Shown: positions 15,846 to 57,017 of the stretch, piece by piece
Position numbering within the stretch: position 1 is the stretch's first letter
How the letters are laid out: each line of letters opens with the position of its first letter
DNA from: Bacillota bacterium
Lineage (GTDB): Bacteria > Bacillota > Sulfobacillia > RBS10-35 > JAJYVN01
Assembly: GCA_021806565.1 (NCBI GenBank)
Contig: JAJZXK010000001.1
Span: 32,314-96,313 of the forward strand
Length of the DNA: 64,000 nucleotides
Reading direction: 5' to 3'
Program-made: the position numbers and the translations under genes
The notes under the pieces: model-generated
The model's input: the letters and a program-made list of their open reading frames with translations, nothing else
The model's database searches: none
Told to the model about the DNA's origin: nothing

Positions 15846-17684
<1,839 letters not shown>

Positions 17685-35125: not shown

Positions 35126-35203
35126 CCCGGGGGCGTCGTGGGGATGGTGGGAGTGGGGGGCGATCGGCCCTCCCGCGGGGGGCGAGGCAAGCTGCGCGGG
35201 CGG

Positions 35204-36514
35204 ATGACGCGCTGGCTCGGGGCGGTGCTGGCCGCCGTCGTGGTCTTCGCCGGTCGGGCGCCCGGGGCACGGGCCGCCCTGCGCCTGCCTGGGACGATCT
35301 CCATTGCGGTCGGGCAGAGACAGCGACTCGACCTGGGTCTGCCAGGTACGGTGGCCGTGCGGGTCAGCGGCTCCGGTGCCAAGTGGTTGAACGTCGACGG
35401 AGCCCCGGCCATGACGTGGCGGGAGGTTCCGGCGGCGGCGCTGTGGCTTGAGCCGCTGCGCCCCGGATCCACCACGATGCAGTTGCGTCTGTTTGGGTTC
35501 ATGCCATGGCGGCCGGTGCGGCTGCGGATGGTGCAGGTTCCCCGGGTGACGGTGGGAGGCCAGTCCATCGGCGTCGTGCTGCACGGCGACGGCCCGCTGG
35601 TGGTGCGGACGGTCCAGGTGCCGCAGGCCGGTGGGGCCGTCGCATCGCCCGCCGCCGGGGCGGATCTGGAGGCGGGAGACGTCGTGGTGGCGGCCGGCGG
35701 CCGGCCCGTGCGCAGCCCGCAGGCGGTCTCGCGCGCAGTCCAGTCGGTGGGGCGGATGGGAGGCTCGCTCACGCTGACCGTCCTGCGCCACGGCCGCATG
35801 GAGTCGGTGCGGGTGCACCCGGTTCGGTCGCCGACGGGCCGCTATCTGATTGGGGCCTGGCTGGTGCGCGACGGGGCATCCGGCGTCGGCACCCTCACCT
35901 TTTACAGGTCGCCGCTGGGTCCGTACGGGGCCCTGGGCCATCCGGTCCTCAACGCGTCCGGGCAGCCGCCGCAGATGGCTGCCCCGGGCATCCTGTGGCC
36001 GACGGTGATTTCCGGACTGATCCCGGGTCGTCCCGGCCGGCCGGGCGAGAAGGTCGGCCAGTTGGAACCCGGCGGGCGCCCGCTGGGCAGCGTGCGCGCC
36101 AACACCCCCGTGGGGGTTTTCGGCCGGTTGGCCGCGGCGCCTGCGGCCGGTGTTCCGGGGGAGGTGCTGCCGATGGCGCTGGCGGACCAGATCCAGGTCG
36201 GCGCCGCGCACCTGTTGACGGTGTTGGACGGCCAAGAGGTCCGCTCCTACCGCGTCGAGATCACCGCCGTGCTGCCGCAACGCAGGATGAGTAGCCGTGG
36301 CTTCGTGCTGCGCGTGGTCGACCCGCGTCTGCTGTCGGCCAGCGGCGGCATCGTTCAGGGCATGAGCGGCAGCCCCATCGTGCAGGACGGCCGCCTGGTC
36401 GGGGCCGTCACCCACGTCTTCGTGGACGAACCGGCCCGCGGCTACGGCGTCTGCGGCTGCTGGATGGCGTCGATGGCGGGGTTGTTGCCATCGACGCCCG
36501 ATGGCGCGTCCTGA
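35204..36514 (+). CDS. spoIVB: SpoIVB peptidase (S55)
   Basis: PDZ domain plus [26 protein letters not shown]55 catalytic motif. N-terminal signal anchor. Confidence 0.85.
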
Positions 36515-37439: not shown

Positions 37440-37476
37440 ACGCGATGCAGGAAATCGATGGGTCGTGGTGGTAATT

Positions 37477-37523
37477 CCGCTGTGACGGGGCGGCGGATAG
37501 GGCGATCCGTCCCGCCACAGCGG
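37477..37523 (+). terminator. imperfect GC hairpin downstream of spo0A (possible terminator, no U tract)
   Basis: CCGCUGUGACGGGG...CCGUCCCGCCACAGCGG inverted repeat seen directly. Confidence 0.3.
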
Positions 37524-37555
37524 ATCTCCCGGATGGTACGAGGGGTGGGGGCTCA

Positions 37556-38341
37556 GTGGAGGAAGGCCAGGGATCGGCCGGGACTCGCGCCAAAGTGTCG
37601 GTGCGTTCCGTGGAGCAACTCATCGAAGGGTTCGCCGCGGTGGAAGGCGCGCGCATCGTGCTGGACGACTGGGGCGCGGTGCAGCAGATCCATGTGCTGG
37701 CCGACGACTCGCGCCCGCCCAAGGCGATCGCGCGCGACATCCAGTCCGGCCTCCAGGCCCGATGGGGTTTGGTGGTCGATCATCGGCGGATCAGCATCGC
37801 CCAGATGGAAGATGTCGCGCCGCGCCCCCAGTGGTCGCGCCTCCGCCTGGAACAGTTCGCGGTCAGTACCGATCCGGTGCGCGGGCGCATCGAGATCGCG
37901 GTGAGCCTCGCGCCGGACGGCGGTCGCGACGCCACAGGGCGTTCGCCGTTGTCCGGCACCTCCCTTTGGCAGGGGAGGGCTGCCGGTGCAAGCGGCGCGG
38001 GGACCGGGCTGCGTCTGGCGTCGGAGGCGACGCTCCAGGCCCTGAACCAGGCGTTGCGGCCGGACCACGCCTTCAGCGTCGCCGATATCGGGCGGATGTC
38101 GCTTGGGGGCCAGGAGATCGTGGTCTGCCTGCTGCAGTACCACGCGCCCCGCGGGGCGGTCGAGATGCTCAGCGGCTCCGCGCTTGTCCGCAGCGAACCG
38201 CTGGAGGCGGCGGTGCGGGCCGTGCTCAACGCCAGCAACCGCTCGTATGGGATCGCCGGGCGGCGCTTGGGCGCCGGAAGCCTGACCCAGGACTTATCGG
38301 CGACGGAGGCGGCCGCCGGTCAGGAATCCGAAGACCACTGA
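37556..38341 (+). CDS. hypothetical protein with two internal repeats
   Basis: GTG start after a GAGGGGTGGGGG RBS. Two ~90-aa repeats. No assignable family. Confidence 0.45.
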   Translation: MEEGQGSAGTRAKVSVRSVEQLIEGFAAVEGARIVLDDWGAVQQIHVLADDSRPPKAIARDIQSGLQARWGLVVDHRRISIAQMEDVAPRPQWSRLRLEQFAVSTDPVRGRIEIAVSLAPDGGRDATGRSPLSGTSLWQGRAAGASGAGTGLRLASEATLQALNQALRPDHAFSVADIGRMSLGGQEIVVCLLQYHAPRGAVEMLSGSALVRSEPLEAAVRAVLNASNRSYGIAGRRLGAGSLTQDLSATEAAAGQESEDH

Positions 38342-38643
38342 CCGTGCCCTTTGGGCGAATGCCCGCCTTCAGTTGTGGGCGCGCGCCAGTGCCATCCATG
38401 CCCTCAGGCCCGGTCCGGTGCGCACGACCGCCAGCCAGCGACGGAACTCGCGGACGCTGCCGTAAAACCGCAATCCTTGCCGCGGTCCGCGGAGCATGCC
38501 ATCGAGGGTGGCCACGTGCATCCCCCCTGCCGTCTGGACGCCCAGGCGCGTCCCCCGGTAGCATGTGCGGGTGCCGCGGCGAACATGCCGGTGTGGCCTG
38601 TGGAGCCGTCGTGGGGGGCTCGCGCGTGGGGGAGTCTTCTTCG

Positions 38644-39858
38644 GTGAATCAGGCCGAAGTGTGGGTCGACCTGCATGTGCATCTGGGCCGGGCGGCCGGG
38701 CGGCCGGTGAAGATCAGCGCCTCCCCGGCCCTGGACCTTGCCGGTGTTCTCGCCACAGCCAAGGCCGCCGTCGGATTGGATGGCGTGGGCGTCGTGGATG
38801 CCTGCACGGTCGGTGGCCTGGCGGACCTGCGCGCGGCGGTGGCCGCAGGGGCGCTTCGTCCCGTCGCCGGCGGCGGTCTGGTCGCGGCGGACGGGCTGGT
38901 CATCTTGCCGGCCGCCGAGGTCGAACTCGACATGGCTGGGCACCGGGTGCATTTTGTGGCGCTGCTTCCCGATCTGGACGCCGCGTCGTCCCTGGGGCAG
39001 CGACTCGCGCGGCATGTGCGCAATCCCTGGCTGTCGAGCCAGATGGCCCACGATCTGGACCCCGCCGGCCTGCTGGCCATGGCTGCCACCGTTGGCGGTG
39101 TGGTGTGGCCGGCCCACGCCTTCACTCCGCACCGCGGTCTCTACGGGTGTGCCGTGCGTTCCGCGGCGGCGCCGCCTCCGCTGGGGCTCGGGCCGCGGGT
39201 GTTCGAGGGCTTTATCGCCGTGGAACTCGGTTTGTCGGCGGACACCGCCATGGCGGACCGACTGGGCGAACTGGCGGAACTGAGCTTTGTCAGCAACTCC
39301 GATGCCCACGGGCTGGCGACCCTTGGCCGTGAGGTGAACCGGATGCGCCTTCGCGGGCCGCTCGACTTCACGGGCGTCGTGCGCTGCCTGCGGCGCGAGG
39401 CGGGATTCGAGATGGTGGCCAACTACGGGATGGAGCCGGCGATGGGGAAGTATCACCGAACGGGGTGCCTACGGTGCGGCCGCACGGCGGATGGTCCGCC
39501 GCCACAAGCGTCCTGTGCCGACTGTCCGGGCTCCCGCGTCGTGACCGGGGTGCTCGACCGGTTGGCCGCGATCGCCGACCGGGCCGAACCGCAGCATCCT
39601 GCCCACCGCCCCCCCTATCACCGCCAGGTGCCGCTTTCGAGCCTGCCCGGGGTCGGCCCGCGTACCCTCGGTCGTTTGCGCTCGGCGCTGGGCCCGGATC
39701 TGGCGGTCCTGCATCGAGCGGAGGCCGACGCGATCGCCGCCGTCGCGGGTGGGACGGTGGCCCGGTGGATTCTGGCCGCCCGCCAGGGGAGGTTGCGGCT
39801 GCAGGCGGGCGGCGGCGGCACCTATGGCAAGGTGCTGGGGGTGGCGCGACTGGCATAG
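38644..39858 (+). CDS. PHP-domain protein with C4 zinc finger, endonuclease Q (TIGR00375)-like
   Basis: VDLHVHLG PHP motif, CLRCGRTADGPPPQASCADCPGSRV zinc finger, HhH-like C-terminus. GTG start with GGGGGAG RBS. Confidence 0.55.
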   Translation: MNQAEVWVDLHVHLGRAAGRPVKISASPALDLAGVLATAKAAVGLDGVGVVDACTVGGLADLRAAVAAGALRPVAGGGLVAADGLVILPAAEVELDMAGHRVHFVALLPDLDAASSLGQRLARHVRNPWLSSQMAHDLDPAGLLAMAATVGGVVWPAHAFTPHRGLYGCAVRSAAAPPPLGLGPRVFEGFIAVELGLSADTAMADRLGELAELSFVSNSDAHGLATLGREVNRMRLRGPLDFTGVVRCLRREAGFEMVANYGMEPAMGKYHRTGCLRCGRTADGPPPQASCADCPGSRVVTGVLDRLAAIADRAEPQHPAHRPPYHRQVPLSSLPGVGPRTLGRLRSALGPDLAVLHRAEADAIAAVAGGTVARWILAARQGRLRLQAGGGGTYGKVLGVARLA

Positions 39859-39896: not shown

Positions 39897-40475
39897 ATGC
39901 GCATCGTGCGCTGGCGCCGGCCGGCGCCGCGCTGGCCCGGCCTTGCCGCTGCGGGTGCCTTGACCGGTGGTCTCGCGGCTGGGGTGGTGGCGGCCTACGC
40001 ATTGGCGCCGGCGGAGCGCGCCGCCCTTGGGGCGGCCATTGCCGCGTACGTTCGCAGCCGCGCCCATGGCCGCGGCCATGTTCTGGGCCCGGCCCTGCGC
40101 GGTTGGCTGCAGGCGGCCGCGCCGGTCTGGGCCGCGGGGATGGTGCGCGGCGTCGGGGTGCCGCTGGCGATCGCCGCGCTCGCCCTGCATGCGTTTGCCC
40201 TCGGAATGGGACTGGGGGTCGCCGCGGCGAGCGGCGGAGTGGCCGGCTTGGTCGCCGGGGCCCTGGCCATCCTGCCCGGCAATCTCCTGGCGCTTCCCGC
40301 CCTGGCGTGGATGGGCGGCCGCGCGGTCGCCCTTGCGGCCCGCCCGGCGGCGAGTCCCCTGCCGCCGACGTACGTGCGCGTCGGCGCGACGGTACTGATC
40401 GGGGTCACCCTCAGCAGCGTGGGGGAGGCGGAACTGGCGCCGCTACTCTTGCACGCCTTTCACATCGGGGGCTGA
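39897..40475 (+). CDS. spoIIM: stage II sporulation protein M (SpoIIM)-like membrane protein
   Basis: Matches the SpoIIM C-terminal half: ILPGNLLALPALAWMGGRAVALA and VGEAELAPLLLHAF (compare IEGYASPLLMEYL). Confidence 0.45.
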   Translation: MRIVRWRRPAPRWPGLAAAGALTGGLAAGVVAAYALAPAERAALGAAIAAYVRSRAHGRGHVLGPALRGWLQAAAPVWAAGMVRGVGVPLAIAALALHAFALGMGLGVAAASGGVAGLVAGALAILPGNLLALPALAWMGGRAVALAARPAASPLPPTYVRVGATVLIGVTLSSVGEAELAPLLLHAFHIGG

Positions 40476-40575: not shown

Positions 40576-41664
40576 TCAGGGCGCGATGCCGAGTGCCAGG
40601 GCGGTGAGGCCGAGTGCCAGGGCGGCCACCGCCACCGCCGCGCCGGCCAGGGCGACCAGTCGCGGTGCGATGGTGCGCCGCCGGGCCACCATGAGCATCG
40701 ACGGCAGGCTGATGGCCGGCAGCGCCAGGAGCAGCACGCCGAAGCTGCCGGCGCCCAGGCCATACCGGGAGAGGACCTGTAGGATCGGCACCTCCCCCGC
40801 CGTCGGGATCACAAAGAGGGTGCCGGCGATCGCGAACGCAGGCAGGAGCCAGAGTGCCGCTCCGATCGCCGGATTCATGGCCGGAAACAACCAGGCGCGC
40901 GCGAAACCCAGGAGCAGGACGATGACGAGCCATTCCGGCACCACGCCGAGCGCGAGGCCCGCCAGGCTGTGCAGCCAACGCCGCCAGACGTTGCCGTCCT
41001 CGTCCTGGGCGGGAGGTTGCGGCAGTCCGGAGGCGTCCCCGGCCGCGTCCCCCGCGAAGCGGTTGACCAGCCAGCCGGCACCCAAGACCAGGACCGCGCC
41101 GGCGACGATGCGCACCAGGGCCCAGCGCCAGCCGAGCACAAAGCCGATGAACACGATCGTAGCCGGATTCAGCACCGGATTGCCGAGCCAATAGGCAATC
41201 GCCGCGCCCGGCGCGACGCGACGGGCCCCGAGCCCCACTGCCAGTGGGGCGCTGCAGCACGTTCACATCATGGACGGCGTTGCGGCGAGTCCCGCCAGCG
41301 CGACCGAGCCGAGCCCGCTGCTTCCCAGCAGGCGGCGCAGCCAGTCTGCCGGGATCAGCGCCTGCACGCCGGCGCCAAGCAGCAGGCCGAGGACCATGGC
41401 CTGCCAGACGTCGCCCACGTAGGTGCGCGTATACGTCCAGGCCGTGGCGAGCGACGGCGCCGGGGCGGCGGCGGCCGTGCCGCTGACGATCGACCCGCCC
41501 AGGGTGTGGTGTGCCGCGGCGGCCAGGCTCTTATGGAAGAGCGGGTCCCACTTCACGTAGAACAATCCCGCGACGGCGATAGCGGTGAACACGGCGATGC
41601 CCCACGCAGCGCGCACCGGTCGCGGCGCCGAGCGCGTGATGGACGTTTGGGCCAAGCAACACAC
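40576..41664 (-). CDS. DUF318/UPF0718 (ArsP/YraQ-like) permease interrupted by one in-frame TGA (41265..41263): candidate selenoprotein or nonsense pseudogene
   Basis: Both halves are collinear in one frame: ...GLAATPSMM-TGA-TCCSAPLAVGL... The TGA falls inside the conserved Cys-rich motif. PTAGEVPI motif is present in the C-terminal half. A GC hairpin starts 12 nt 3' of the TGA. Confidence 0.5.
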
Positions 41665-41726: not shown

Positions 41727-42590
41727 TCATGCCGGATGCGCATCGGGGATGGGATGGATGCCCCGGGTCGCCGTCACGATGCACCAAGCGCCCCGTTCCT
41801 GTACGCAGGTGCCGGAGCGGGCCAGGAGGCCGCAGACCTCCGCACCATACACCTCGCCCAGCGGGGGGCAACCGGGGCGTGGTGCGGCCAAAAGGGTCCG
41901 TTGCACCGCAGGCGGGTCCGCGGCCTGGCGCCAGGTGGTGGAGTGGGCTTCCAGTTCGAACGGGCAGAACAGTTCGGGGGAAAAGGCCGCCTCCAGTGCC
42001 TCGCGGCGGAGCGCGAAGGGTAGGCGCCGCCAGCGTTGCAGAGCGGCATCGCTTTGTTCCGAGGATGGCGCGGGCAGAAGCGGCTCGGCGTCGCCGTGCA
42101 GGAGTTCGAAAGCAGCCATCCGCCCCCCCGGACGCAGCACGCGGGCAAGTCCCGCGATGACGCTGGGCAGTGCCTCCTGCGCATACTGCAGTACGGAGCG
42201 GGCGACGACGGCGTCGACCGTCAGCGATTCGAGCGGCAGGTTCACCATATCCGCGTGCAGCCAGCGCACCCGCTCGGCCAGCGGGTGGGATCGGACCGAC
42301 GTCCGGGCCTGTTCCAAGAGTTCAGCGGAAATGTCCAGGGCCAGAACCGTGCCCTGCGGACCGACCGCATCCAGCAGTGCGGGGAGGAACTCGCCGGTGC
42401 CGCAGCCGAGTTCGAGGACGGTCTGGCCGGGCGCCGGAGCCGTGGCCTGCAACAGGCGCTGGCGGATCCCCGCGATGAAGGCGAGGGCCGCCTGTGCCTC
42501 TTCGGGGGTGGCTGCGTTGAAGCGGGTGCGGTTCAACCAGTCGGCCCAGATGTCGGGCATGGTCTGCCTGGTTGGAACAGGGCGTGGCAT
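41727..42590 (-). CDS. class I SAM-dependent methyltransferase
   Basis: VLELGCGTGEF motif I. Cys-rich C-terminus. Lies 62 nt upstream of the permease on the same strand. Confidence 0.75.
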   Translation of the reverse strand: MPRPVPTRQTMPDIWADWLNRTRFNAATPEEAQAALAFIAGIRQRLLQATAPAPGQTVLELGCGTGEFLPALLDAVGPQGTVLALDISAELLEQARTSVRSHPLAERVRWLHADMVNLPLESLTVDAVVARSVLQYAQEALPSVIAGLARVLRPGGRMAAFELLHGDAEPLLPAPSSEQSDAALQRWRRLPFALRREALEAAFSPELFCPFELEAHSTTWRQAADPPAVQRTLLAAPRPGCPPLGEVYGAEVCGLLARSGTCVQERGAWCIVTATRGIHPIPDAHPA

Positions 42591-45883: not shown

Positions 45884-47308
45884 GTGATCGCGGGGCAGAA
45901 GGGCTCGGGGGACCGTCGTCGACGCCTGCCGCCCGTGCACGCGTTACTGGCGGACGCCCGGCTGGAGTCTTGGCAGGAGCGACTTGGCCGGGACGTCGTG
46001 CGCCGCGGGGTCGCCGCGGTGTTGGCCGTGGCGCGGACGCAGGCCGAGGCGGGGGATGTTCCGGACGCGGCCGCCATCCTGGACCGGGTAGAGCGGCGGC
46101 TGCGTGGAGAGTCGCGACCCCGCCTGCGGGCGGTGATCAACGCCACCGGCATCGTGCTGCATACCGGTCTGGGGCGCGCGCCCCTGGCAGCGGAGGCCGT
46201 GGAGGCGGTGGCGCGCGTCGCCGCTGGGTACAGCAACCTGGAGTTCGACCTCCAGGATGGCGAGCGCGGCGACCGCCACGCACTGGTGGCGTCCGCGCTG
46301 GGCGAACTCACGGGTGCGCCCGCGGCGATGGTCGTCAACAACAACGCCGCCGCGGTGCTGCTGCTTTTGGCCGCTCTGGCGGCGGGGCGCGAGGTGGTCG
46401 TCTCGCGCGGCGAACTGGTGGAAATCGGCGGCAGCTTCCGCATCCCAGAGGTGCTGGCGCAAAGCGGCGCGTCCCTGGTCGAAGTCGGCACGACCAACCG
46501 CACCTACGCCCGCGATTACACCGCGGCGACGAAGCGGCCCGGCGCAACGGTGGCCCTGCTGCTCAAGGTGCACCAGAGCAACTTCCGCCAGGTCGGCTTC
46601 ACGGCGGCACCGGGCATCGCCGAATTGGCGGCGGTCGCCCGCGGCGGCGGGATTCCGTTGGCCTATGACATGGGATCCGGCACGCTCTGGCCTGGACTCG
46701 GACCGCAGGGAGCGGTCGGGGAACCAACGGTGCGCGAGGCGCTGGCCGCTGGCGCCGACGTGGTGACCTGGAGCGGCGACAAGCTGTTGGGGGGGCCGCA
46801 GGCGGGCGTGCTGTGCGGGCGGGCCGACCTGATCCGGCACTGCGCCCGCCACCCACTTGCGCGGGCCGTGCGCGTCGACAAGTTGACGCTTGCGGCCCTG
46901 GAGGCGACCTTGGCCTTGTATCGGGAGGGACGGGCGGCGCAGGCGGTGCCGGCACTGCGCATGCTGCGCCGCCCGCCGGGCGAACTGGCGCGTGAGGCCG
47001 AGGCCCTGGCGGCAGCCTGCGGCCGCCGTCTGGGGCCCCGGGTCGAGGTGACCGTCGTGGCGGGGGCCTCGGCGGCGGGCGCCGGCGCCCTGGCCGCCGT
47101 GGAACTGCCCACCGCGCTGGTGCGACTGCGGGCCCGGGGGGCCGCGGTCTCCGAGTGGGCCGCTGCCCTGCGCACCGGCGAGGTGCCGTTGGTGGCCCGC
47201 GTCCAGGACGACGCACTCCTGTTGGATCCCCGGACCCTGCTGCCCGGTCAGTCCGAAGGGGTGCCCGACCTCCTGGCGGCCGCGCTGACGGCGCTTGCGG
47301 CTGGCTGA
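45884..47308 (+). CDS. selA: L-seryl-tRNA(Sec) selenium transferase (selenocysteine synthase) SelA
   Basis: VINATGIVLHTGLGRAPL, VVNNNAAAVLL, VSRGELVEIGGSFRIPEV, PLP-lysine motif WSGDKLLGGPQAG. Its start abuts the lgt stop. Confidence 0.9.
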   Translation: MIAGQKGSGDRRRRLPPVHALLADARLESWQERLGRDVVRRGVAAVLAVARTQAEAGDVPDAAAILDRVERRLRGESRPRLRAVINATGIVLHTGLGRAPLAAEAVEAVARVAAGYSNLEFDLQDGERGDRHALVASALGELTGAPAAMVVNNNAAAVLLLLAALAAGREVVVSRGELVEIGGSFRIPEVLAQSGASLVEVGTTNRTYARDYTAATKRPGATVALLLKVHQSNFRQVGFTAAPGIAELAAVARGGGIPLAYDMGSGTLWPGLGPQGAVGEPTVREALAAGADVVTWSGDKLLGGPQAGVLCGRADLIRHCARHPLARAVRVDKLTLAALEATLALYREGRAAQAVPALRMLRRPPGELAREAEALAAACGRRLGPRVEVTVVAGASAAGAGALAAVELPTALVRLRARGAAVSEWAAALRTGEVPLVARVQDDALLLDPRTLLPGQSEGVPDLLAAALTALAAG

Positions 47309-47506
47309 AGGCGGATGCTGTCACGTGGGGTCGAACGTATCCCCGCCGCGTGTGGCCGACGGCCGGGGGGCGCGGCAGGAAGCGGGTGGCGCATGGGCGA
47401 AGAGGACGCGCGTCCAAGGAGCGCTCATGATTCCGACGGTGGTGCCGGACCGCAGCCCTCGGCGTGTGGAAGCGCTGGCGCGGGGTCCGGGCGGGGAGGC
47501 GCACCC

Positions 47507-47734
47507 ATGCTGGTGCTGACGCGGCGCGTCAACGAGACGATCATGATTGGCGACGACATTACGGTGACCGTGGTGTCTGTGCAGGGCCACGGTCCGCACG
47601 CGCAGGTTCGCCTCGGGATCACCGCCCCCCGCAAGACGGTGGTACTGCGCCGCGAGGTGGCGTCCCGCAACGAGGGCCCCCGCGCCAGGGATGCGACGGC
47701 GCCGACGGATGGCGGACCCGTCGCGGCGGGTTAG
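47507..47734 (+). CDS. csrA: carbon storage regulator CsrA
   Basis: [51 protein letters not shown]. Confidence 0.85.
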
Positions 47735-47897
47735 GTCGGCGCGGCACGGGCCTTCCTTGCGGCGTCCGCCCGCGGATCTCGAGTGTGGCGCGGCGCCGGT
47801 CCCTCCACCACGTGCGCTGGGCGGTCTTTGGCCGTCCTCGCCGCGCTTCGGGATGCCGGTCCGCTCGTGGCTTGTCCGGATACGTTTCCGCCTGGTT

Positions 47898-48224
47898 TCA
47901 CCCGTCCTGCCCCTCGGCCGCCCTGAGTCGGTCGGGCGGAAATCCGGCATGGCGCTGGTAGGCACGGCGGGCGGCGAGACCGCGGGCGCGCTCACCCATC
48001 TCCTCCGTCGCTTTGTGCAGCGTTTGCTGGAGGCGCAGGTCCAGATGGGCGACTTCGGCCAGTGCCGGACCAGTGGCGCGCAGACCGGCCGCCGTCGTGA
48101 GGGCGCGTTCCACTTCGCGGCACAGGCCGGGCAGCGCCTGCCAGTCTCCGCGTTCGGCGCAGGCGAGTTGCTGTCGCAGCAGGGAACGCAGGTGGGTGAG
48201 CTCCGGGTCGCCCGGAGGGTTCAC
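47898..48224 (-). CDS. small helical protein, possible flagellar chaperone (FliT/FlgN-like)
   Basis: 108 aa. GTG start overlaps the GNAT stop. Assigned by position in the flagellar filament locus only. Confidence 0.3.
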   Translation of the reverse strand: MNPPGDPELTHLRSLLRQQLACAERGDWQALPGLCREVERALTTAAGLRATGPALAEVAHLDLRLQQTLHKATEEMGERARGLAARRAYQRHAGFPPDRLRAAEGQDG

Positions 48225-48742
48225 TTCGGTTCGGCCGCTGGGAGAAGGATGAGGCCGAACAGGACCTCGTCGCAGAAGGTGTCGCCGATGCGCAACTGGT
48301 CGCGTTGCACCCCTTCGACCGCATAGCCGGCCCGGTGGAAAAGCGCCAGCGCGGCCGCGTTGGACCGGGCGACCCCCGCGCCGATGCGGCGCAGTCCGGC
48401 CGCCATGGCCCAGGCGCGCACCCCCTGGAGCAGTAGCTGCCCGATGCCCCGTCGGCGCCATCGGGGGTCCACGGCGAGGGACGCCGTGGCCGTATGGACG
48501 GTGGTCGGTTCGAGCCCGCGCACCCCGACCGCGAAACCGACCACGCAGCTTTGGTGGACGGTCACCAGGGCGCAGGCATGCTCCAGTTCGAGGGCCGCGA
48601 GGCGTACCGCCTCCTCCTTTGGGTTCAGCGAGGCCGCGTCGATGCCGAGCATGCCCTCGGCCGCGACCGAGCGCAGGAGTGCCACGATGGCGTCGGCGTC
48701 GGCCTCGGTCGCGGCGCGCAGGCGGATCGCCGACTCAACCAC
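48221..48742 (-). CDS. GNAT family N-acetyltransferase within the flagellar filament locus
   Basis: VGFAVGVRGL...VDPRWRRRGIGQLLLQGVRAWA is a GNAT motif. Start set just after the fliD stop. Confidence 0.6.
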   Translation of the reverse strand: MVESAIRLRAATEADADAIVALLRSVAAEGMLGIDAASLNPKEEAVRLAALELEHACALVTVHQSCVVGFAVGVRGLEPTTVHTATASLAVDPRWRRRGIGQLLLQGVRAWAMAAGLRRIGAGVARSNAAALALFHRAGYAVEGVQRDQLRIGDTFCDEVLFGLILLPAAEPK

Positions 48743-50207
48743 CACTGCTGCTGCCCCCTGATCCACCCGATCCCTGGGCGGCATACTGCGCCTGCAGGAA
48801 GCCCGAAACCTGCTGGCTCTGGGCGTGGCTTGCCATCAAGCCCTGAATCATCTGCGAGAACTGCGACTGCATCTGTTGTTGCTGCTGCTGGATCATCTGG
48901 TTGATCGGGCTGTTTGGGTCGTTGATCTCCTGGCCCAGGCTCTGGGCCTGCTGCTGCAGGTCGCTGATCTGGGCGGGGATCGAGCCGTTGGGCCCCACAA
49001 AGAGGCTGAGTTGCTGTTGGAGTTGGGTGGCGATGCCGCCGCTGGCGCCGTTCATCAGCATGGCGACCGCGGCGGGATTGTCTGCCAGGGCCGTCTGCAA
49101 CGTGGTGGGGGAGACGCTGAGGGCGAGGTTGCTCGGGGAGCCGACCGGCGCGGAGAGCGTGACGCCGATCTGCGAAAGGGACTGGTACCCCGCCGGTTGA
49201 CCTGGCTGCACGGCGGTCAGGGCCTGAGTGATGCTGTTGGTCAGCGACAGCAGGGCGGCGTTGCCTTCGAGCGCCCCGTTTTTGCCCCCAAACTTCTGCA
49301 CGTCGCCCAGCAGGGTGTTGAAATCCTTGGCCAACTGCGAAAAAGCCCCGCTGATCGCGGACTGGTTTTGGGTGACGCTGATGGTGGCGGGGCTGCCGGA
49401 GGGCGTCGGCGCCAGCAGTTGCAGCGTGACGCCCGGGATGGTGGTGTTGTCGGTGTTGGTGAGGCCGGTCTCGGCCAAGCCGTTGACGGTGTATTGCGCG
49501 GCGTGGGCGGCCTGCAGTTGGTTGGCGGGCGTGGCGCTCGAGTTCAGGACGCCGAGCGACTTGAGGATGCCGCTCCCATCCGTCCACTGGATGGCCGTGC
49601 CCTGGGTGGACGCGATGTTGAGGGCGTAACCGCCGGTGGTCGGCATGACGGTCGCCGTGACGTTGTCGCTGGCGGCGTTGATCGAGTGGGAGATGGACTG
49701 GAGGCTGTCGGTGGACGCCACGCTGATCGTCTGACCGTTGATGGTGAAGCTGCCGCTTTGGTTGAGCGCGGCCGAAGAGCTCGTCTGGGTCGCTGAGTTG
49801 TCGATCTCCATCTGGGCCAGTTGGCTGACGGATACCTGGAAGGTGCCGGGCGAACCCGATGCGCTGGCGGACGTCGACACGTTCACCTGCGTGGGCGCGG
49901 AACTGGCCGCGCTCACCCCCTGATACAGGCCGGTGCCGGCCAGGCTCTGGGCGTCGGTCTGCAGGTTCGAGACATCCGTCTGCAACTGCTGCCAGGCCTG
50001 CTCCTGGGTGTTGACGGTGGAGAGTTGTTGAGAAAGCTGATTGAGGGGCAGGGCGTCGACGCCCAACTGGGCCTGCATGGCCTGATCCAGGGCGGAGATG
50101 TTGTAGCCGGGCAGGAGCGCCCCGAGGATCTGCGGATTGTTCCAGACGCTGGACGCACCCGAGGAAGATGATCCAAGAAGGCCCATGCCCCCGATGCTGC
50201 TGCTCAC
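48735..50207 (-). CDS. fliD: flagellar filament cap protein FliD
   Basis: Ser/Thr/Gln-rich 490 aa with N- and C-terminal FliD heptad regions. Confidence 0.8.
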   Translation of the reverse strand: MSSSIGGMGLLGSSSSGASSVWNNPQILGALLPGYNISALDQAMQAQLGVDALPLNQLSQQLSTVNTQEQAWQQLQTDVSNLQTDAQSLAGTGLYQGVSAASSAPTQVNVSTSASASGSPGTFQVSVSQLAQMEIDNSATQTSSSAALNQSGSFTINGQTISVASTDSLQSISHSINAASDNVTATVMPTTGGYALNIASTQGTAIQWTDGSGILKSLGVLNSSATPANQLQAAHAAQYTVNGLAETGLTNTDNTTIPGVTLQLLAPTPSGSPATISVTQNQSAISGAFSQLAKDFNTLLGDVQKFGGKNGALEGNAALLSLTNSITQALTAVQPGQPAGYQSLSQIGVTLSAPVGSPSNLALSVSPTTLQTALADNPAAVAMLMNGASGGIATQLQQQLSLFVGPNGSIPAQISDLQQQAQSLGQEINDPNSPINQMIQQQQQQMQSQFSQMIQGLMASHAQSQQVSGFLQAQYAAQGSGGSGGSSSGG

Positions 50208-50632
50208 CGCCGTACCCCCCCCGCCGCCGCGGCCGGTTGGCCGTGCAACTCAAGGTCGGCCGCCTGTTGCCAAGCCTCGCGCAACTCGGTGATCAATGGG
50301 ATCAGCGCGGCCAGCCGCTCGCGGCTCTTTTCGACGTTTGCTCGACCGAGTTCGGTGGACAGGTAGCCATATACAGCGTCCAGGTTCTTCGCCACGTCGC
50401 CGCCCACCTCGAGGTTGAGGCTGCCGCGCAGCAGCCCCAGGACCTGCTGGGCGTTGGTCAGTGCTTCGTGCGCCGCGGGGACGTCTTGGGCCGCGATGGC
50501 GCGGTCGGCCTGCCCGATGGCCATGAGCACGGCCGCCAGTGCCGTGGCGGGCACGCGTTGCGGCGGCAGCAGGGCTGCGGCGGCGCTGTGGTAGGCACAG
50601 ACGCGGGCGTGAAGGGTCGGGTCGGACACCAC
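50204..50632 (-). CDS. fliS: flagellin-specific chaperone FliS
   Basis: ALTNAQQVLGLLRGSLNLEVGGDVAKNLDAVYGYL matches the FliS core. ATGA overlap with fliD. Confidence 0.85.
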   Translation of the reverse strand: MVSDPTLHARVCAYHSAAAALLPPQRVPATALAAVLMAIGQADRAIAAQDVPAAHEALTNAQQVLGLLRGSLNLEVGGDVAKNLDAVYGYLSTELGRANVEKSRERLAALIPLITELREAWQQAADLELHGQPAAAAGGVRR

Positions 50633-50659
50633 AAGCCACCCCCGTTCGGGCTGGAAGCC

Positions 50660-50688
50660 GACAGGGGGCGGGCGTACCCGCCCCCCGC
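50660..50688 (-). terminator. GC-rich hairpin terminator downstream of flagellin
   Basis: The minus-strand RNA carries GGGGGCGGGUACGCCCGCCCCC (9-bp stem) followed by a U-containing tract, 25 nt after the flagellin stop. Confidence 0.5.
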
Positions 50689-50710
50689 GGTTGGCGTGGG
50701 ACCGTCGGGA

Positions 50711-52417
50711 CTAGGGCAGGAGCTTGAGCAGGGCCTGGGGCACCTGGTTTGCCTGGGCGAGCATCGCGACGCCCGACTGCTGTAGCACCTGGTCCTTGGA
50801 GAGCTTGACCATCGCCAGGGCCATGTCGGCGTTCATGATCCCGCCGCGGGCCGTGGTCAGGTTCTGCTGCGAGGTCTGCAGATCGTTGCTGGCCTGGGTC
50901 AGCCGGTTCATCAGCGATCCCACCTGGGCGCGCTCACCGGAGATCTGGGTCAGGGCCGCCTGGATAGCGGTCTGGGCCGTCGTCGCCTGGCTGTAGTTCA
51001 TGACCGAGAGGCCGCCGCCGACGCTGGCCTTCTGCTGCACCGTACCGCCGGAACCGGCCGCCGCCGTGTTGGTGGCGTAGGTGAGGGCGAAGTTGGACGC
51101 GGCGCCGGAGCCGAGGGTGCTGGTTGCGGCACCGTTGGTTCCGTAGGTGACACCGGACGAGGCTCCGAAGAGCGTCGACGCGGAGACGTTGACCGACACG
51201 GCCTGGCCGTCGTTGGCGTTGCCCACGGTCGCCGGGTTGGTGGTGGCCGCGTTGATGGTGGTGGCGCTGCCGATCGCCGTGCCGTTGGAGTCGACCAGCT
51301 GTACGGAGGCCGATTCGGGGGTCAGGGCGATGTTGTAGGTGTCGGTGCTCGTCGCCGTACCGGAGCCGGCGGCGGTGCCGGACTGGGTGGGTGCCGTGAT
51401 CTTGCTCAGATCGACGCTGGCTCCCGTCGTGCCGAGTTGTTGCGTGCCGGTGAGCGTGGACAGTCCGCTGGCGACGGTGGTGTAGGTGCTGCCGCCATCC
51501 GTGCTGTAGAGCACGTTGTAGGTGGTGGTGCCGGCGGTGCCGCTGGTGTACGGGGTGACCGCCTGGACCTGGACGGAGATGTTCTGGGACGTCGTGCCGG
51601 AATAGGTGAGCGCGTCGTACTTCATGGTGCCGGCGGTGCCGCTCAGACCGGTCAGCGTATTGCTTTCCGTAAAACCGTTGCTTCCCGCTGCGGTGGTGGT
51701 GCTGACTAGGGATGTCTGGCTGCCGCCGTTGATGGCGGCGGCCGATTGCTGGGCGGCGGTGATCTGCAGGCCGTAGTTGGTACCCGTCAGACCGTAGCTG
51801 CCATAGGGGTTGCTGGTGCTGGAGCCGCCATACAGCGCCAGAGCGGATAGGCCGTAGGTGGCCGCCGTGCTGGCGCTGCCGAAGGCGACGCTGTTCGGGT
51901 TCTGGCCTGAGACACCGAGGCTTTTGGCGTCCACCGCTCCCAACGAGAACTGCAGGGCCTGGTTGGGGTCGGCGCCGATGGCCAGGTTGACGTTGCCGAG
52001 CACACCGTCCAGCAGGTTCTTGTTGTTGAAGGCGGTCTGGTTGGTGATGCTGTTGATTTCCTTGGTGTACTGGTTCATCTGCGACTGGATCGAGCCGCGG
52101 TCGACACCCACGTTGGTGCCGTTGGCGGCCTGCGTGGCCAGGGAATACATCGACTGCAGGATGTTCTGAATCTGGCTGAGGGCGCCGTCGGCGGTCTGCA
52201 GGAAGCTGATGCCGGACTGGGCGTTCTGATTCGCCTGGTTCATGCCGTCGATCTGGGACTGCATCTGCTGGCTGATGGCCAGACCGGCCGGGTTGTCGGC
52301 GGCGGAGTTGATCTTGTACCCGGACGACAACTGCTGCAGCACGCCGTTCATGCTTGTCTGGGTGTTCTCGAGGTTGCGCCACGCATTCAGGGCCGCAACG
52401 TTGGTGTTCACAAACAT
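50711..52417 (-). CDS. hag: flagellin
   Basis: Conserved D0/D1 regions at both termini (NTNVAALNAWRNL...; ...LAQANQVPQALLKLL). 568 aa with a long variable middle. Confidence 0.95.
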   Translation of the reverse strand: MFVNTNVAALNAWRNLENTQTSMNGVLQQLSSGYKINSAADNPAGLAISQQMQSQIDGMNQANQNAQSGISFLQTADGALSQIQNILQSMYSLATQAANGTNVGVDRGSIQSQMNQYTKEINSITNQTAFNNKNLLDGVLGNVNLAIGADPNQALQFSLGAVDAKSLGVSGQNPNSVAFGSASTAATYGLSALALYGGSSTSNPYGSYGLTGTNYGLQITAAQQSAAAINGGSQTSLVSTTTAAGSNGFTESNTLTGLSGTAGTMKYDALTYSGTTSQNISVQVQAVTPYTSGTAGTTTYNVLYSTDGGSTYTTVASGLSTLTGTQQLGTTGASVDLSKITAPTQSGTAAGSGTATSTDTYNIALTPESASVQLVDSNGTAIGSATTINAATTNPATVGNANDGQAVSVNVSASTLFGASSGVTYGTNGAATSTLGSGAASNFALTYATNTAAAGSGGTVQQKASVGGGLSVMNYSQATTAQTAIQAALTQISGERAQVGSLMNRLTQASNDLQTSQQNLTTARGGIMNADMALAMVKLSKDQVLQQSGVAMLAQANQVPQALLKLLP

Positions 52418-52562
52418 GGTCTCTTGCCCGTCTTCCGCCCCGGCCGTGCGGGCTTCACTCCCTCGAATTTATGGATTGCGATCCTTCCGCCCCACGGGGG
52501 AGGTGCGACGGGGGACCGCCTCTTGGCCGGGCTCCGCTGGCCTTGTGCCAGCGTCACTTTCC

Positions 52563-55560: not shown

Positions 55561-55694
55561 CGTTCGTGAAAGTTGGGGGGAAGGCCCCCTTGCCGGAAGG
55601 TGGCGGCTGGTGACGTGTGGTACTAGCTCCGTCGACCCAGCACCACGGCGAGTGTACGCGAGGGCTCGGCAAAGGGGGTGCGCACCTGCGCAGG

Positions 55695-55850
55695 TGCTGA
55701 AGCTCGGGCATGCCCGGGCGCGGGGGAGTTTCCGGCACCGTGGGGTGAATCTCGCCGATACGGCGGGTAGGGCGGCCCGGCCGGCCCGAACCCGACAACT
55801 AACCCCGCAAGCACACGGTCGGGGAGGGTCGTCCTCCCCTCAGGTCTGGC
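55695..55850 (+). promoter_or_regulatory. c-di-AMP (ydaO/yuaA-type) riboswitch upstream of a LysM/M23 peptidase
   Basis: GGGGUGAAUC, GGGUAGGG and CCCGAACCCGACAACUAACCCCGCAAGC match the ydaO consensus. Followed by a GGGGAGGGUCGUCCUCCCC terminator-like hairpin and then the RBS/TTG of the peptidase. Confidence 0.7.
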
Positions 55851-55877
55851 AACGCCACACCCAGCGGAGGTGACCCG

Positions 55878-57017
55878 TTGGCATCGCCTGAAGACAAACC
55901 GCGGCCTCGTTCGGCCTTTTCCGGCCGTCGGCGCCGCTTCCGTGCCGAAGTGTTTGCCCGTAACGTCTCCCGCCGGTTGCACGGGTGGTCCCAACATCCT
56001 CATGGACGTCACTTCTGGATCGCGGCGGCCGTCCCGATTGCCCTGGCCCTGGTTCCCTGGGAGGCCGCCGGCTTCGGAACCGCACAGGCGGCGTCGCCCG
56101 TGACCCCGCTGGCTATGGCGCCGGCCCATCCCGACGTGCTCCAGGTCACGGCATCCAGACAGCGTTCTCATCATTCGACCCAGGCGACGCAGACCCGCCA
56201 GCGGCTGTCCAGCATGGCGCGCCCGGCGGCGGCCGAGCGGCAGGGTCCGGTGATTTCCTCCTACGCCGTTCGGGCGGGTGACACCCTGAGCGGCATCGCG
56301 GCGCGTTTCGGCACCGACATGGCCAGCCTGGAGCGCATCAACCACCTGTCGGCCGACTCGATCCTGCAACCCGGCCAGAAACTGACCGTCTTGCATCAGA
56401 TCGGCTGGCTGTACACGGTGCGCTCCGGCGACACCCTGGATGGCATCGCGTCCGCGACGGGTGCGTCGCCCCGCGCCATTGCGCGAAGCAATGGCATGGG
56501 CGGAGGCGGCGCCATCCTGCACATCGGCCAGCGCTTGGTGATCCCCAAGAATCCGCCAGTGGCGATCGCGGCCGCGCGGCCCGCATCGGCTGCCGATCCC
56601 GCCCCGACGGCGCCGCCTCCGAGCCGCGGCGCGGCGTTGCAGTGGCCGGTCCAAGGCGTCATCACCAGCCCGTTTGGTTGGCGGCCCAATCCCTGGGGTG
56701 GTGCCGGGATGTTCTTCCACCACGGCATTGACATCGGGGTGCCGCAGGGTACGCTGGTGCACGCGGCCTGCAGCGGACGGGTGGTGCTGGCGCGATGGGA
56801 CGGCGGCTATGGCAACGCCGTCAAGGTTGCGTGCAACGACGGGTTGCTGACGCTGTACGCGCACAACTCCAGGTTTGCCGTGCACTACGGGCAACTGGTC
56901 GCCCAGGGTCAGGTGCTCGCCTATTCGGGTATGACCGGCAACGCCACCGGACCGCACGTGCACTTCGGCGTCATGCGCGGCGGCGTGTGGCAGAACCCGA
57001 TGAACTACCTGCCGTGA
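55878..57017 (+). CDS. LysM-domain M23 family metallopeptidase
   Basis: Two LysM repeats (YAVRAGDTLSGIA; YTVRSGDTLDGIA). M23 motifs HHGIDIGVPQGT and HVHFGV. Confidence 0.85.
   Translation: MASPEDKPRPRSAFSGRRRRFRAEVFARNVSRRLHGWSQHPHGRHFWIAAAVPIALALVPWEAAGFGTAQAASPVTPLAMAPAHPDVLQVTASRQRSHHSTQATQTRQRLSSMARPAAAERQGPVISSYAVRAGDTLSGIAARFGTDMASLERINHLSADSILQPGQKLTVLHQIGWLYTVRSGDTLDGIASATGASPRAIARSNGMGGGGAILHIGQRLVIPKNPPVAIAAARPASAADPAPTAPPPSRGAALQWPVQGVITSPFGWRPNPWGGAGMFFHHGIDIGVPQGTLVHAACSGRVVLARWDGGYGNAVKVACNDGLLTLYAHNSRFAVHYGQLVAQGQVLAYSGMTGNATGPHVHFGVMRGGVWQNPMNYLP

What the first reader, a model, noticed from the sequence alone, without database searches (positions are those of the whole stretch)
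41225..41270. In-frame TGA inside the Cys-rich signature of an ArsP/DUF318-like permease, with a hairpin 12 nt downstream and selA nearby: candidate selenoprotein
The permease reads continuously on the minus strand through a single TGA: ...AGLAATPSMM[TGA]TCCSAPLAVGLGARRV... The TGA falls within the cysteine-rich motif region (TP..C.C..P) that these transporters use for substrate (organoarsenical/thiol) binding, where an extra chalcogen is chemically plausible. Exactly 12 nt 3' of the TGA, the mRNA can form a 7-bp all-Watson-Crick GC stem (GCCCCAC/GUGGGGC) with loop UGGCA. This placement is reminiscent of bacterial SECIS elements. selA is encoded about 4.6 kb away in this window, so the organism is expected to decode UGA as Sec. 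The alternative is a simple nonsense mutation in a genome that shows other decayed genes.
Basis: partly seen in the sequence, partly recalled or inferred. Interest (0 to 1): 0.75.

Follow-up and report, generated by a model that had tools for sequence, protein, structure and literature searches.

The report
Selenocysteine-containing YraQ-type permease gene
The in-frame TGA is almost certainly a real selenocysteine codon with its own recoding hairpin, in a membrane transporter that public annotations cut into two fragments, and relatives of this transporter often sit next to selenium-metabolism genes.

Summary
A minus-strand PF03773 (ArsP_1; YraQ/UPF0718-type) permease, 41664..40576, has one in-frame TGA at 41265..41263. 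A perfect hairpin starts 12 nt downstream, and an intact selA lies 4.6 kb away.

The TGA column is an invariant Cys (P-S-M-M-C-T-C-C-S-A-P) in all full-length homologs.

- **Conservation:** the TGA is kept in four sister lineages (88% aa identity, dS about 0.5). dN/dS is 0.06-0.15 on both sides.
- **Spread:** the same TGA occurs in 21 permease lineages, in Bacillota, Chloroflexota, Rokubacteria, NC10 and Deltaproteobacteria.
- **Hairpin specificity:** the full 8-bp hairpin is present in 31 of 37 TGA forms and in 0 of 105 Cys forms. It shows compensatory base changes that even alter the encoded amino acids.

So this is a genuine selenoprotein gene with a bacterial SECIS, not a nonsense mutation.

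The closest precedent is the USC variant of SO_0444 Cu/Zn efflux permeases. This protein fails that family's cutoff (54.7 versus 300 bits). No paper in the searched library, including a 2026 review's selenoprotein table, mentions this subfamily.

There was also an unexpected result. In 17 of 65 lineages the permease lies within 6 kb of selD, selA, senA (selenoneine synthase) or a selenium-type LysR regulator. In one Hyphomicrobium locus it sits inside a selA-selB-selD-fdh cluster. This suggests selenium-related transport. Substrate and direction are unproven.

The parts
40576..41664 (-). Full-length permease coding sequence read through the internal TGA, about 362 codons. The start is uncertain (GTG 41664 or TTG 41655). 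The terminal stop is TGA 40578..40576. Public gene calls split it into fragments of about 133 aa and 220 aa.
   Evidence: PF03773, 53.9 bits; P0002 is the 220-aa fragment at 100% identity; alignment to full-length homologs; GC3 0.87 in both halves; dN/dS 0.06-0.15 in both halves.
41263..41265 (-). UGA codon read as selenocysteine. It aligns with the first, invariant Cys of the M-M-C-T-C-C motif.
   Evidence: invariant C134; TGA conserved in L001, L002-5, L006; 25 species-level genomes with MMUTCC; identical in two further assemblies.
41232..41250 (-). SECIS-type hairpin. The 5' arm is 41250..41243, the GGC loop is 41242..41240, and the 3' arm is 41239..41232. It starts 12 nt after the UGA.
   Evidence: -13.8 kcal/mol; 89.7% of cells paired, 3 pairs with compensatory changes, 0/500 shuffles reach the covariation score; 8/8 pairs in 31/37 TGA forms versus 0/105 Cys forms; Fisher p 1e-25 by locus, 3e-10 by lineage.
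41217..41274 (-). 58-nt block around the UGA and hairpin with only one synonymous change among four lineages, although dS is about 0.5 elsewhere in the gene. This indicates constraint at the nucleotide level.
   Evidence: (alignment A2) compared (dS 0.44-0.68).
41727..42590 (-). SAM-dependent methyltransferase (UbiE/Methyltransf_25 type) immediately upstream on the same strand. It is probably co-transcribed with the permease and is conserved in the sister lineages only.
   Evidence: generic methyltransferase hits, none above an equivalog cutoff; same arrangement in L001, L002, L004.
45884..47308 (+). selA (L-seryl-tRNA(Sec) selenium transferase), intact. It is the only Sec-machinery gene in the window.
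   Evidence: PF03841, E 6e-130, 1-366/367; TIGR00474, 517 bits, cutoff 267.9; synteny with L002.

Best explanation
The gene encodes one full-length selenoprotein, not two fragments and not a pseudogene.

Shown:
- The single internal UGA replaces the first Cys of the invariant M-M-C-T-C-C motif of a YraQ/UPF0718-type permease (Pfam ArsP_1).
- The UGA is followed after 12 nt by a conserved, covarying 8-bp hairpin with a G-rich loop.

Inferred, by analogy with the established bacterial SelB/SECIS mechanism: during translation SelB.GTP.Sec-tRNA(Sec) binds this hairpin on the mRNA and delivers selenocysteine to the UGA in the ribosomal A site. The result is a roughly 362-residue protein carrying U-T-C-C.

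In an AlphaFold model of the closest Cys homolog, the motif lies in an unwound break between two membrane helices. The fold resembles DASS/INDY and ArsB elevator-type transporters, so the selenol plus two thiols most likely form the substrate site (inferred).

Gene neighbourhoods of the subfamily (selD, selA, selB, senA, Se-type LysR, fdhE/fdh) suggest the cargo is a selenium species, or that the transporter serves SelD-dependent pathways. Substrate and direction are inferred only. A side effect (inferred) is that full-length transporter would be made only when selenium is available.
For: 1. The TGA column is an invariant Cys in 65 full-length homologs at 46-67% identity.
2. Four sister lineages keep the TGA, with dS 0.44-0.68 and dN/dS 0.06-0.15 both upstream and downstream.
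3. A pattern scan found 25 further species-level genomes with MMUTCC in intact frames. They include the isolate Ammoniphilus resinae DSM 24738 and MAGs of Bacillota, Dehalococcoidia, Thermomicrobiales, Rokubacteria, NC10 and Deltaproteobacteria.
4. Hairpin covariation: C-G to G-C in 5 sequences, U-A to C-G in 3, A-U to U-A or G-C in 2. Some of these swap the encoded residues (APLAVGL versus APVALGL). The covariation score is 0.201 versus 0.108 in shuffles (0/500 reach it), and slid registers give 0.07 or less.
5. Specificity: all 8 pairs form in 31/37 TGA forms and in 0/105 Cys forms (maximum 6). By lineage this is 15/21 versus 0/44 with 7 or more pairs, p = 3e-10. A Cys form with the same peptide, APLAVGL, uses other codons and forms no hairpin (L123).
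6. Geometry fits bacterial SECIS as I recall it: a 12-nt spacer, the loop about 20 nt after the UGA, and G at the start of the loop.
7. selA is intact in the window. The Sec-form locus L031 carries selD, selA and tRNA-Sec(UCA) within 6 kb.
8. TGA is the usual stop codon in this genome, including for this gene, so the genetic code is not reassigned.
10. Selenium link: selD lies beside the permease in 19 loci from 11 lineages, at a median 132 nt. selA occurs in 8 loci, SenA (533 bits, cutoff 420) in 4 Sec-form loci, and Se-type LysR in 4. The Hyphomicrobium locus reads selA-selB, selD, permease, fdhE-fdoIHG. A rough null expectation for selD adjacency in 11 of 65 lineages is about 1e-20.
Against: - There is no experimental evidence of selenium incorporation.
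- selB, selC and selD were not found in the 64-kb window, and the rest of the genome could not be searched.
- No Rfam family matches the hairpin.
- The single-sequence fold is not significant (z = -1.55).
- Six Sec-form lineages lack the canonical hairpin. They have other or shifted stems, which are weak in L026 and L030.
- The selenium link is not universal. E. coli-type yraQ loci, Paraburkholderia acidisoli, Sulfobacillus harzensis and the closest Cys homolog P0001 have no selenium genes nearby.
- In the window itself selA is 4.2 kb away, separated from the permease by alaDH, an integrase and lgt.
- Characterised relatives (ArsP, SO_0444) export arsenicals or Cu/Zn, so a metal or metalloid substrate remains possible.
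Confidence: 0.88

Rival explanations
1. Pseudogene: a simple nonsense mutation (TGC/TGT to TGA) has inactivated the permease.
For: A Cys codon is one substitution away from TGA. Public gene callers report two fragments. selB, selC and selD were not seen in the window.
Against: The TGA is retained in four lineages separated by dS of about 0.5, with dN/dS of about 0.1 on both sides. The same TGA occurs in 21 lineages across at least five phyla, always in intact frames. A covarying hairpin is found only in the TGA forms.
Confidence: 0.02
2. Sequencing or assembly error at 41263-41265: the true codon is TGC or TGT.
For: The source appears to be a metagenome-derived, high-GC contig, where base errors do occur.
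Against: The identical 1080-nt sequence, TGA included, is found in ENA and Logan assemblies. The same TGA is present in dozens of unrelated assemblies.
Confidence: 0.01
3. Genuinely split gene: translation stops at the UGA and restarts at GTG 41238, giving two polypeptides (133 and 220 aa) that assemble into the transporter. The hairpin would serve termination-reinitiation or mRNA stability.
For: The gene callers' model is consistent across assemblies. The fold has two inverted repeats, so a two-piece transporter is conceivable.
Against: The split would delete the invariant T-C-C-S-A-P-L-A residues between the stop and the restart. The frame between them stays open and conserved at the amino-acid level in all lineages. 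The break falls inside a repeat rather than between repeats. The stop codon is always TGA, never TAA or TAG, and always sits at a Cys column.
Confidence: 0.04
4. It is a true selenoprotein, but the cargo is not selenium. It would be a soft-metal or metalloid efflux pump (Cu/Zn/Hg/As, as for SO_0444, SaoE and ArsP), and Sec simply gives a stronger ligand. This rival concerns function only.
Against: No ars, cop or mer genes are among the recurrent neighbours. The most frequent neighbour is selD, at a median 132 nt, with selA, selB, senA, Se-type LysR and fdhE also present. Scores against SO_0444 and SaoE are far below their cutoffs.
Confidence: 0.35

Closest known systems
SO_0444 family Cu/Zn efflux transporter (NCBIfam NF033936), selenoprotein variants with U-S-C, e.g. 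WP_014809615.1 of Desulfomonile tiedjei (Haft and Gwadz preprint 10.1101/2022.07.06.499078; review PMC13188914)
   Same: Same Pfam superfamily (ArsP_1). Sec replaces the first Cys of the conserved C-x-C motif. It is a non-enzymatic membrane transporter with Sec as a presumed ligand.
   Different: The window protein scores 54.7 bits against a cutoff of 300. Its motif is M-M-U-T-C-C, not U-S-C. Only residues 72-209 align. Neighbours are selenium-metabolism genes, not metal-resistance genes. The review does not list this subfamily.
E. coli YraQ / UPF0718 family of uncharacterised permeases
   Same: Homologs at 52-66% identity carry this name in JGI annotation. Loci with the yraP(BON)/yhbP/yraR-type neighbourhood carry the same MMCTCC motif.
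   Different: Those members have Cys, no hairpin, and no selenium genes nearby. Their function is unknown.
ArsP, the methylarsenite/organoarsenical efflux permease (TCDB ArsP family), and SaoE
   Same: Same Pfam family and a Cys-containing motif in the same region. SaoE aligns to residues 89-208.
   Different: SaoE scores 36.3 bits against a cutoff of 325. No ars gene was among the recurrent neighbour clusters at any of the 139 loci. SaoE is reported never to contain Sec.
Bacterial SECIS elements (E. coli fdhF type; bSECIS model of Zhang and Gladyshev, from memory)
   Same: A hairpin inside the coding sequence, starting about 11-12 nt after the UGA, with G at the start of the apical loop. The structure is conserved by compensatory changes.
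   Different: The sequence is unrelated to known examples and there is no Rfam match. I see no bulged U. Six lineages use a different or shifted stem.
YedE/YeeE, the previously predicted prokaryotic selenium-related transporter (PMC5322559)
   Same: A membrane protein with a conserved Cys that is linked to SelD by gene neighbourhood. Some members are listed as selenoproteins.
   Different: A different family (PF04143). Here the link to SelD is partial: selD is adjacent in 11 of 65 lineages.

Membership tests
Bacterial selenoprotein gene (UGA-Sec with SECIS) | An in-frame UGA aligned with Cys (or Sec) in homologs | tested here: met
   Invariant Cys column C134 in 65 homologs. There are 105 Cys forms and 37 TGA forms of the same motif.
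Bacterial selenoprotein gene (UGA-Sec with SECIS) | The UGA is conserved among orthologs, with purifying selection on both sides | tested here: met
   TGA in four lineages; dN/dS 0.06-0.15 upstream and downstream; intact frames in 25 further genomes.
Bacterial selenoprotein gene (UGA-Sec with SECIS) | A stem-loop at the proper distance downstream of the UGA, conserved by covariation and absent from Cys forms | tested here: met
   The spacer is 12 nt, the stem 8 bp and the loop GGC. Three pairs show compensatory changes. The hairpin is complete in 31/37 TGA forms versus 0/105 Cys forms.
Bacterial selenoprotein gene (UGA-Sec with SECIS) | The genome encodes selA, selB, selC (tRNA-Sec) and selD | tested here: inconclusive
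   selA is intact in the window. Related Sec-form locus L031 has selD, selA and tRNA-Sec.
Bacterial selenoprotein gene (UGA-Sec with SECIS) | Selenium is actually incorporated (75Se labelling or mass spectrometry) | not testable with these tools
   Requires an experiment.
Rfam-curated SECIS families | A match to a covariance model | tested here: not met
   The only hit in 41100..41350 at E up to 10 is a chance CRISPR-DR20 hit.
Pfam ArsP_1 (PF03773) | A score above the gathering threshold | tested here: met
   53.9 bits against 32.3. All homologs carry PF03773.
SO_0444 family Cu/Zn efflux transporter (NF033936) | A score above the curated equivalog cutoff | tested here: not met
   54.7 bits against 300, and only residues 72-209 align.
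SaoE efflux transporter (NF040736) | A score above the curated cutoff; occurrence within the SAO locus | tested here: not met
   36.3 bits against 325. No SAO genes appear among the neighbours.
ArsP organoarsenical exporter | Location in an ars operon; arsenical efflux activity | tested here: not met
   No ars gene is among the recurrent neighbour clusters of the 139 loci. The window neighbours are a generic methyltransferase and alaDH. Efflux activity is not testable here.
DASS/ArsB-like (ion-transporter superfamily) elevator fold | Structural similarity, with the substrate site at broken helices or hairpin tips | tested here: inconclusive

The most novel reading that the evidence does not exclude
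The M-M-C/U-T-C-C subfamily of YraQ/UPF0718 permeases is a dedicated selenium transporter that serves SelD-dependent pathways: Sec-tRNA synthesis, formate dehydrogenase maturation and selenoneine biosynthesis. It would import or export a reduced selenium species bound as a selenenyl-sulfide or diselenide at the C/U-x-C-C site. In the Sec forms, the transporter's own synthesis would be gated by selenium supply through the UGA and SECIS. This would supply a candidate for the dedicated prokaryotic selenium transporter that recent reviews say has not been identified (PMC9312934, PMC13188914).
Probability: 0.35. Interest if true: 0.8.

Novelty: new member of a known kind. Interest (0 to 1): 0.66.

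Why it matters
1. **Annotation.** This gene is reported as two fragments in every public assembly I looked at (about 130-160 aa plus 220 aa). The same mis-call probably applies to the 21 lineages found here, including a cultured isolate, Ammoniphilus resinae DSM 24738. A simple rule (MMUTCC plus hairpin) would correct the annotations.

2. **Selenoproteome.** It adds a second, distinct ArsP-superfamily permease clade to the very short list of transporter selenoproteins. It has an unusually clean natural control: the hairpin is present in the TGA forms and absent from 105 Cys forms.

3. **RNA versus protein constraint.** The hairpin visibly constrains the protein sequence (APLAVGL versus APVALGL versus APPAVGL). 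This is a clear example of RNA structure shaping a coding sequence.

4. **Selenium transport.** The recurrent adjacency to selD, selA, selB, senA and fdh genes turns an uncharacterised, widespread permease family that includes E. coli YraQ into a testable candidate for selenium transport. That is an open question in prokaryotic selenium biology.

Tried and rejected
- **Rfam:** the scan of the hairpin region gave only a chance CRISPR-repeat hit. The whole-window scan found only TPP and c-di-AMP riboswitches.
- **Single-sequence folding:** the z-score of -1.55 is not informative in a 71% GC genome.
- **Other Sec genes in the window:** the search for tRNA-Sec, selD, senA and SelB-type GTPases found none. 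The region after selA holds an unknown ORF, a GNAT gene and flagellar genes.
- **Other same-frame ORF pairs separated by TGA** (4526 and 8431, minus strand): these are just adjacent genes, AhpC/SCO1-like plus a deacetylase and queE plus queC.
- **Cluster look-up** returned no names or accessions.
- **First neighbour-ORF selection** by length picked spurious high-GC ORFs and was replaced by a GC3-filtered selection.
- **Literature searches** for YraQ plus selenium, and for selenoneine plus permease, found nothing relevant. The sen-cluster preprint mentions only an unspecified 'putative selenate transporter'.
- **Methyltransferase-permease pairing** as a general feature was rejected: it occurs only in the window's own clade.
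Full report
**1. Observation**

On the minus strand, one reading frame runs from 41691 to the stop at 40578..40576. It is interrupted only by TGA at 41265..41263...AGLAATPSMM*TCCSAPLAVGLGARRV.... With the TGA masked, the product matches Pfam ArsP_1 (PF03773) at 53.9 bits, gathering score 32.3. The stretches before and after the TGA both have GC3 of 0.87, which is the coding signature of this 71% GC genome.

Twelve nucleotides after the TGA, the mRNA can form GCCCCACU/AGUGGGGC with a GGC loop. The hairpin alone folds at -13.8 kcal/mol. selA lies at 45884..47308 (+) and is intact: TIGR00474 517 bits, PF03841 positions 1-366 of 367.

A stem of this quality follows only 8 of the 975 TGA triplets in the window. 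The 76-nt fold by itself is unremarkable (z = -1.55). The identical 1080-nt gene, TGA included, is present in an ENA assembly and a Logan assembly.

**2. The TGA sits at an invariant cysteine**

A protein search returned more than 1200 relatives. In 65 full-length homologs at 46-67% identity, the column under the TGA is an invariant Cys within an invariant M-M-C-T-C-C..P motif.

Four hits at 88-100% identity were only 220-221 aa long and began exactly where the window's downstream ORF begins. Their contigs (L001, L002-L005, L006) show the same split. The DNA alignment shows the TGA conserved in every one.

Among these four lineages, dS is 0.44-0.68 and dN/dS is 0.06-0.14 upstream and 0.11-0.15 downstream of the TGA. 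Both halves have therefore remained under purifying selection while the TGA was retained. A 58-nt block around the TGA and hairpin carries a single synonymous change, although the gene-wide dS predicts several.

**3. The Sec form is widespread**

I scanned one genome per GTDB species for ATGATGTGAACNTGYTGYNNNGCNCC. This gave 27 hits, of which 25 are intact full-length permease frames reading MMUTCC. They come from:
- many Bacillota MAGs
- the isolate Ammoniphilus resinae DSM 24738
- Dehalococcoidia
- Thermomicrobiales
- Rokubacteria
- NC10
- Deltaproteobacteria

At 75% identity the 139 loci form 65 permease lineages. Twenty-one are Sec and none is mixed. A rough neighbour-joining tree puts the Sec forms in about seven clades.

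**4. The hairpin behaves as a SECIS**

In the alignment of 29 distinct Sec forms (A3), the 8-bp helix at +15..+33 is paired in 89.7% of cells. Three pairs show changes on both sides:
- C-G to G-C in five sequences
- U-A to C-G in three sequences
- A-U to U-A or G-C in two sequences

The covariation score is 0.201, against 0.108 ± 0.013 in shuffles (0 of 500 reach it) and 0.07 or less for slid registers.

The compensatory changes also alter the protein. APLAVGL becomes APVALGL, APPAVGL or APLAEGL, so the RNA structure is being preserved at the expense of the peptide.

Six lineages lack this helix. Read directly from A3:
- L010 and L032 form CCGG-U-GGC(C)...(G)GCC-U-CCGG.
- L026 and L030 form CGC-U-GGC...GCC-U-GCG, with a G-C to C-G swap between the two groups.
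- L012 and L033 have other strong stems.

The decisive control is the Cys forms. All 8 pairs form in 31 of 37 TGA loci and in 0 of 105 Cys loci (maximum 6, mean 3.9). Fisher's p is 1e-25 by locus. By lineage, 15 of 21 Sec lineages have all 8 pairs and 0 of 44 Cys lineages have 7 or more, p = 3e-10. The one Cys form with the same peptide, APLAVGL, uses different codons and has no hairpin (L123).

The geometry agrees with what I recall of bacterial SECIS elements: a 12-nt spacer, the loop about 20 nt after the UGA, and G at the start of the loop. No Rfam model matches.

TGA is the commonest ordinary stop codon in the window and also ends this gene, so codon reassignment is excluded.

**5. Sec machinery**

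Only selA is in the window. There is no tRNA, and no selD and no SelB-type GTPase motif. The region after selA holds an unknown ORF, a GNAT gene and flagellar genes. This point therefore stays open for this genome.

In the related Sec-form locus L031, the permease is followed by selD at 208 nt, then by selA, and by a tRNA-Sec(UCA) gene within 6 kb.

**6. What the protein is**

NCBIfam gives only sub-threshold hits: SO_0444 Cu/Zn efflux transporter at 54.7 bits (cutoff 300) and SaoE at 36.3 bits (cutoff 325). JGI names homologs 'uncharacterized membrane protein YraQ (UPF0718 family)'. Loci with the enterobacterial yraP/yhbP/yraR-like neighbourhood carry the same MMCTCC motif.

No relative has a solved structure. 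An AlphaFold model of the closest natural Cys form (P0001, 67% identical) is confident, with pLDDT 90 and pTM 0.89. It places M-M-C132 in an unwound break between helices 116-129 and 133-145. A matching break at I-P-T-A-G-E (283-289) lies in the second half of the protein.

**7. Unexpected result: selenium neighbourhoods**

I clustered neighbour ORFs across the 139 loci and annotated cluster representatives.

| Neighbour | Score vs cutoff | Loci | Permease lineages | Notes |
|---|---|---|---|---|
| SelD | NF002098, 495.7 vs 299 | 19 | 11 | commonest neighbour; median 132 nt, often same strand |
| SelA | TIGR00474, 530.9 vs 267.9 (L031 representative) | 8 | 6 | |
| SenA, selenoneine synthase | NF041186, 533 vs 420 | 4 | 4 | all Sec-form: L007, L010, L013, L024 |
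| GT4 glycosyltransferase | SenB model 93 bits, below cutoff | 9 | 9 | 7 of the 9 loci are Sec forms |
| Selenium-metabolism-type LysR | 188 vs 250, below cutoff | 4 | 4 | |
| FdhE | TIGR01562, 232.2 vs 187.65 | 7 | 2 | |

In total, 27 of 139 loci (17 of 65 lineages) have SelD, SelA, SenA or the LysR regulator within 6 kb. Only 39 loci have at least 1.5 kb of sequence on both sides, so this is likely an undercount. A crude null expectation for selD adjacency in 11 of 65 lineages is about 1e-20. That figure is my estimate and is not corrected for phylogeny.

A Hyphomicrobium genome shows selA-selB, then selD, then the permease (Cys form), then fdhE-fdoI-fdoH-fdoG. The fdoG gene is itself split where its UGA should be.

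The association is not universal. Paraburkholderia acidisoli, Sulfobacillus harzensis, the closest Cys form P0001 and the E. coli-type loci have no selenium genes nearby. In the window's own clade, the immediate partner is a UbiE-type SAM methyltransferase (41727..42590, same strand), which is conserved only within that clade. selA is 4.2 kb away, beyond alaDH, an integrase and lgt.

**8. Literature**

Haft and Gwadz (bioRxiv 10.1101/2022.07.06.499078) report that SO_0444-family permeases occasionally carry U-S-C in place of C-S-C. They also state that this family and MerT-like proteins were the only prokaryotic transporter selenoproteins they could validate at that time.

A 2026 review (PMC13188914) lists SO_0444 (UxC, 'GenBank annotated'), SaoP, YeeE/YedE and a few others. 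My term searches of the review found no mention of a YraQ/UPF0718/ArsP-type permease. Reviews state that no dedicated high-affinity selenium transporter is known, and YedE is the predicted candidate (PMC5322559, PMC9312934).

No paper in the searchable library pairs YraQ with selenium. The sen-cluster preprint mentions only an unspecified 'putative selenate transporter' near some clusters. The protein database holds the window's product only as the 220-aa fragment, including from NCBI, so these records do not recognise the gene as a selenoprotein gene.

**9. Verdict**

This is a real selenocysteine codon with a cognate SECIS in a permease (confidence about 0.88). Pseudogene, sequencing-error and split-gene readings are each contradicted by several independent results.

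It is a new member of a known kind. Sec at the first Cys of the C-x-C motif of an ArsP-superfamily permease has a precedent in SO_0444, but this subfamily fails that family's membership test and is not catalogued.

The more novel possibility is that this subfamily transports selenium for SelD-dependent pathways. Gene neighbourhoods support it, but it is unproven (about 0.35), and a soft-metal or metalloid efflux role remains a serious rival.

Noticed in passing
L159:2344-13712 (Hyphomicrobium sp., GCA_964523815.1): A compact selenium and formate dehydrogenase cluster: selA, selB, selD, the Cys-form permease, fdhE, fdoI, fdoH, and fdoG. The fdoG gene is called as two pieces (197 aa and 821 aa), split where its Sec UGA should be.
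   Followed up: partly
L007:2045-7615; L010:280-4172; L013:1114-4584; L024:2115-7745: Sec-form permease genes lie inside or beside selenoneine-type clusters: SenA above its NCBIfam cutoff, a GT4 glycosyltransferase that scores below the SenB cutoff, and a SelD/SenC-like gene. Some loci also have a divergent selenium-type LysR regulator.
   Followed up: partly
L031:7482-7576: A tRNA-Sec (anticodon UCA) gene lies about 6 kb from a Sec-form permease, with selD and selA in between.
   Followed up: no
L010, L012, L026, L030, L032, L033 (columns 25-48 of alignment A3): Six Sec-form lineages lack the canonical hairpin and use a shifted or different stem. In L026 and in L030 (Ammoniphilus resinae) the stem is weak, about -9 kcal/mol. 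This may be a second SECIS type or a case of SECIS turnover.
   Followed up: partly
window 55685-55828 (+): c-di-AMP riboswitch (RF00379, 65.6 bits) directly upstream of the ORF at 55803..57017.
   Followed up: no
window 15710-15820 (+): TPP riboswitch (RF00059, 58.8 bits) upstream of the ORF at 15846..17684.
   Followed up: no
window 4526-5929 (-): A 467-aa ORF with two thioredoxin-fold domains: AhpC-TSA/SCO1-SenC at residues 134-263 and Redoxin at 343-454. It is followed in the same frame, after a TGA, by a polysaccharide-deacetylase-like ORF. I judged them to be two separate genes.
   Followed up: partly
window 7750-9580 (-); 35126-36514 (+); 48735-52468 (-): Queuosine genes (queD-like PTPS, a radical-SAM queE-like gene, queC), SpoIVB peptidase, and fliD-fliS-flagellin. 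Together with Spo0A in the syntenic L002, these indicate a motile, spore-forming, high-GC Bacillota bacterium.
   Followed up: no
window 47321-47995 (-), 38404-39456 (-), 39995-40408 (-), 37475-38341 (+): ORFs around the permease and selA with no Pfam or NCBIfam match. The one at 39995-40408 is conserved next to the permease in the sister lineages (tblastn, 80-83% identity).
   Followed up: partly
L099, L113 and similar metagenome loci: Enterobacterial-type yraQ loci, with neighbours BON-domain YraP/DolP, YhbP and an NAD-binding YraR-like gene, carry the same MMCTCC motif. The uncharacterised E. coli YraQ therefore belongs to this motif group.
   Followed up: partly
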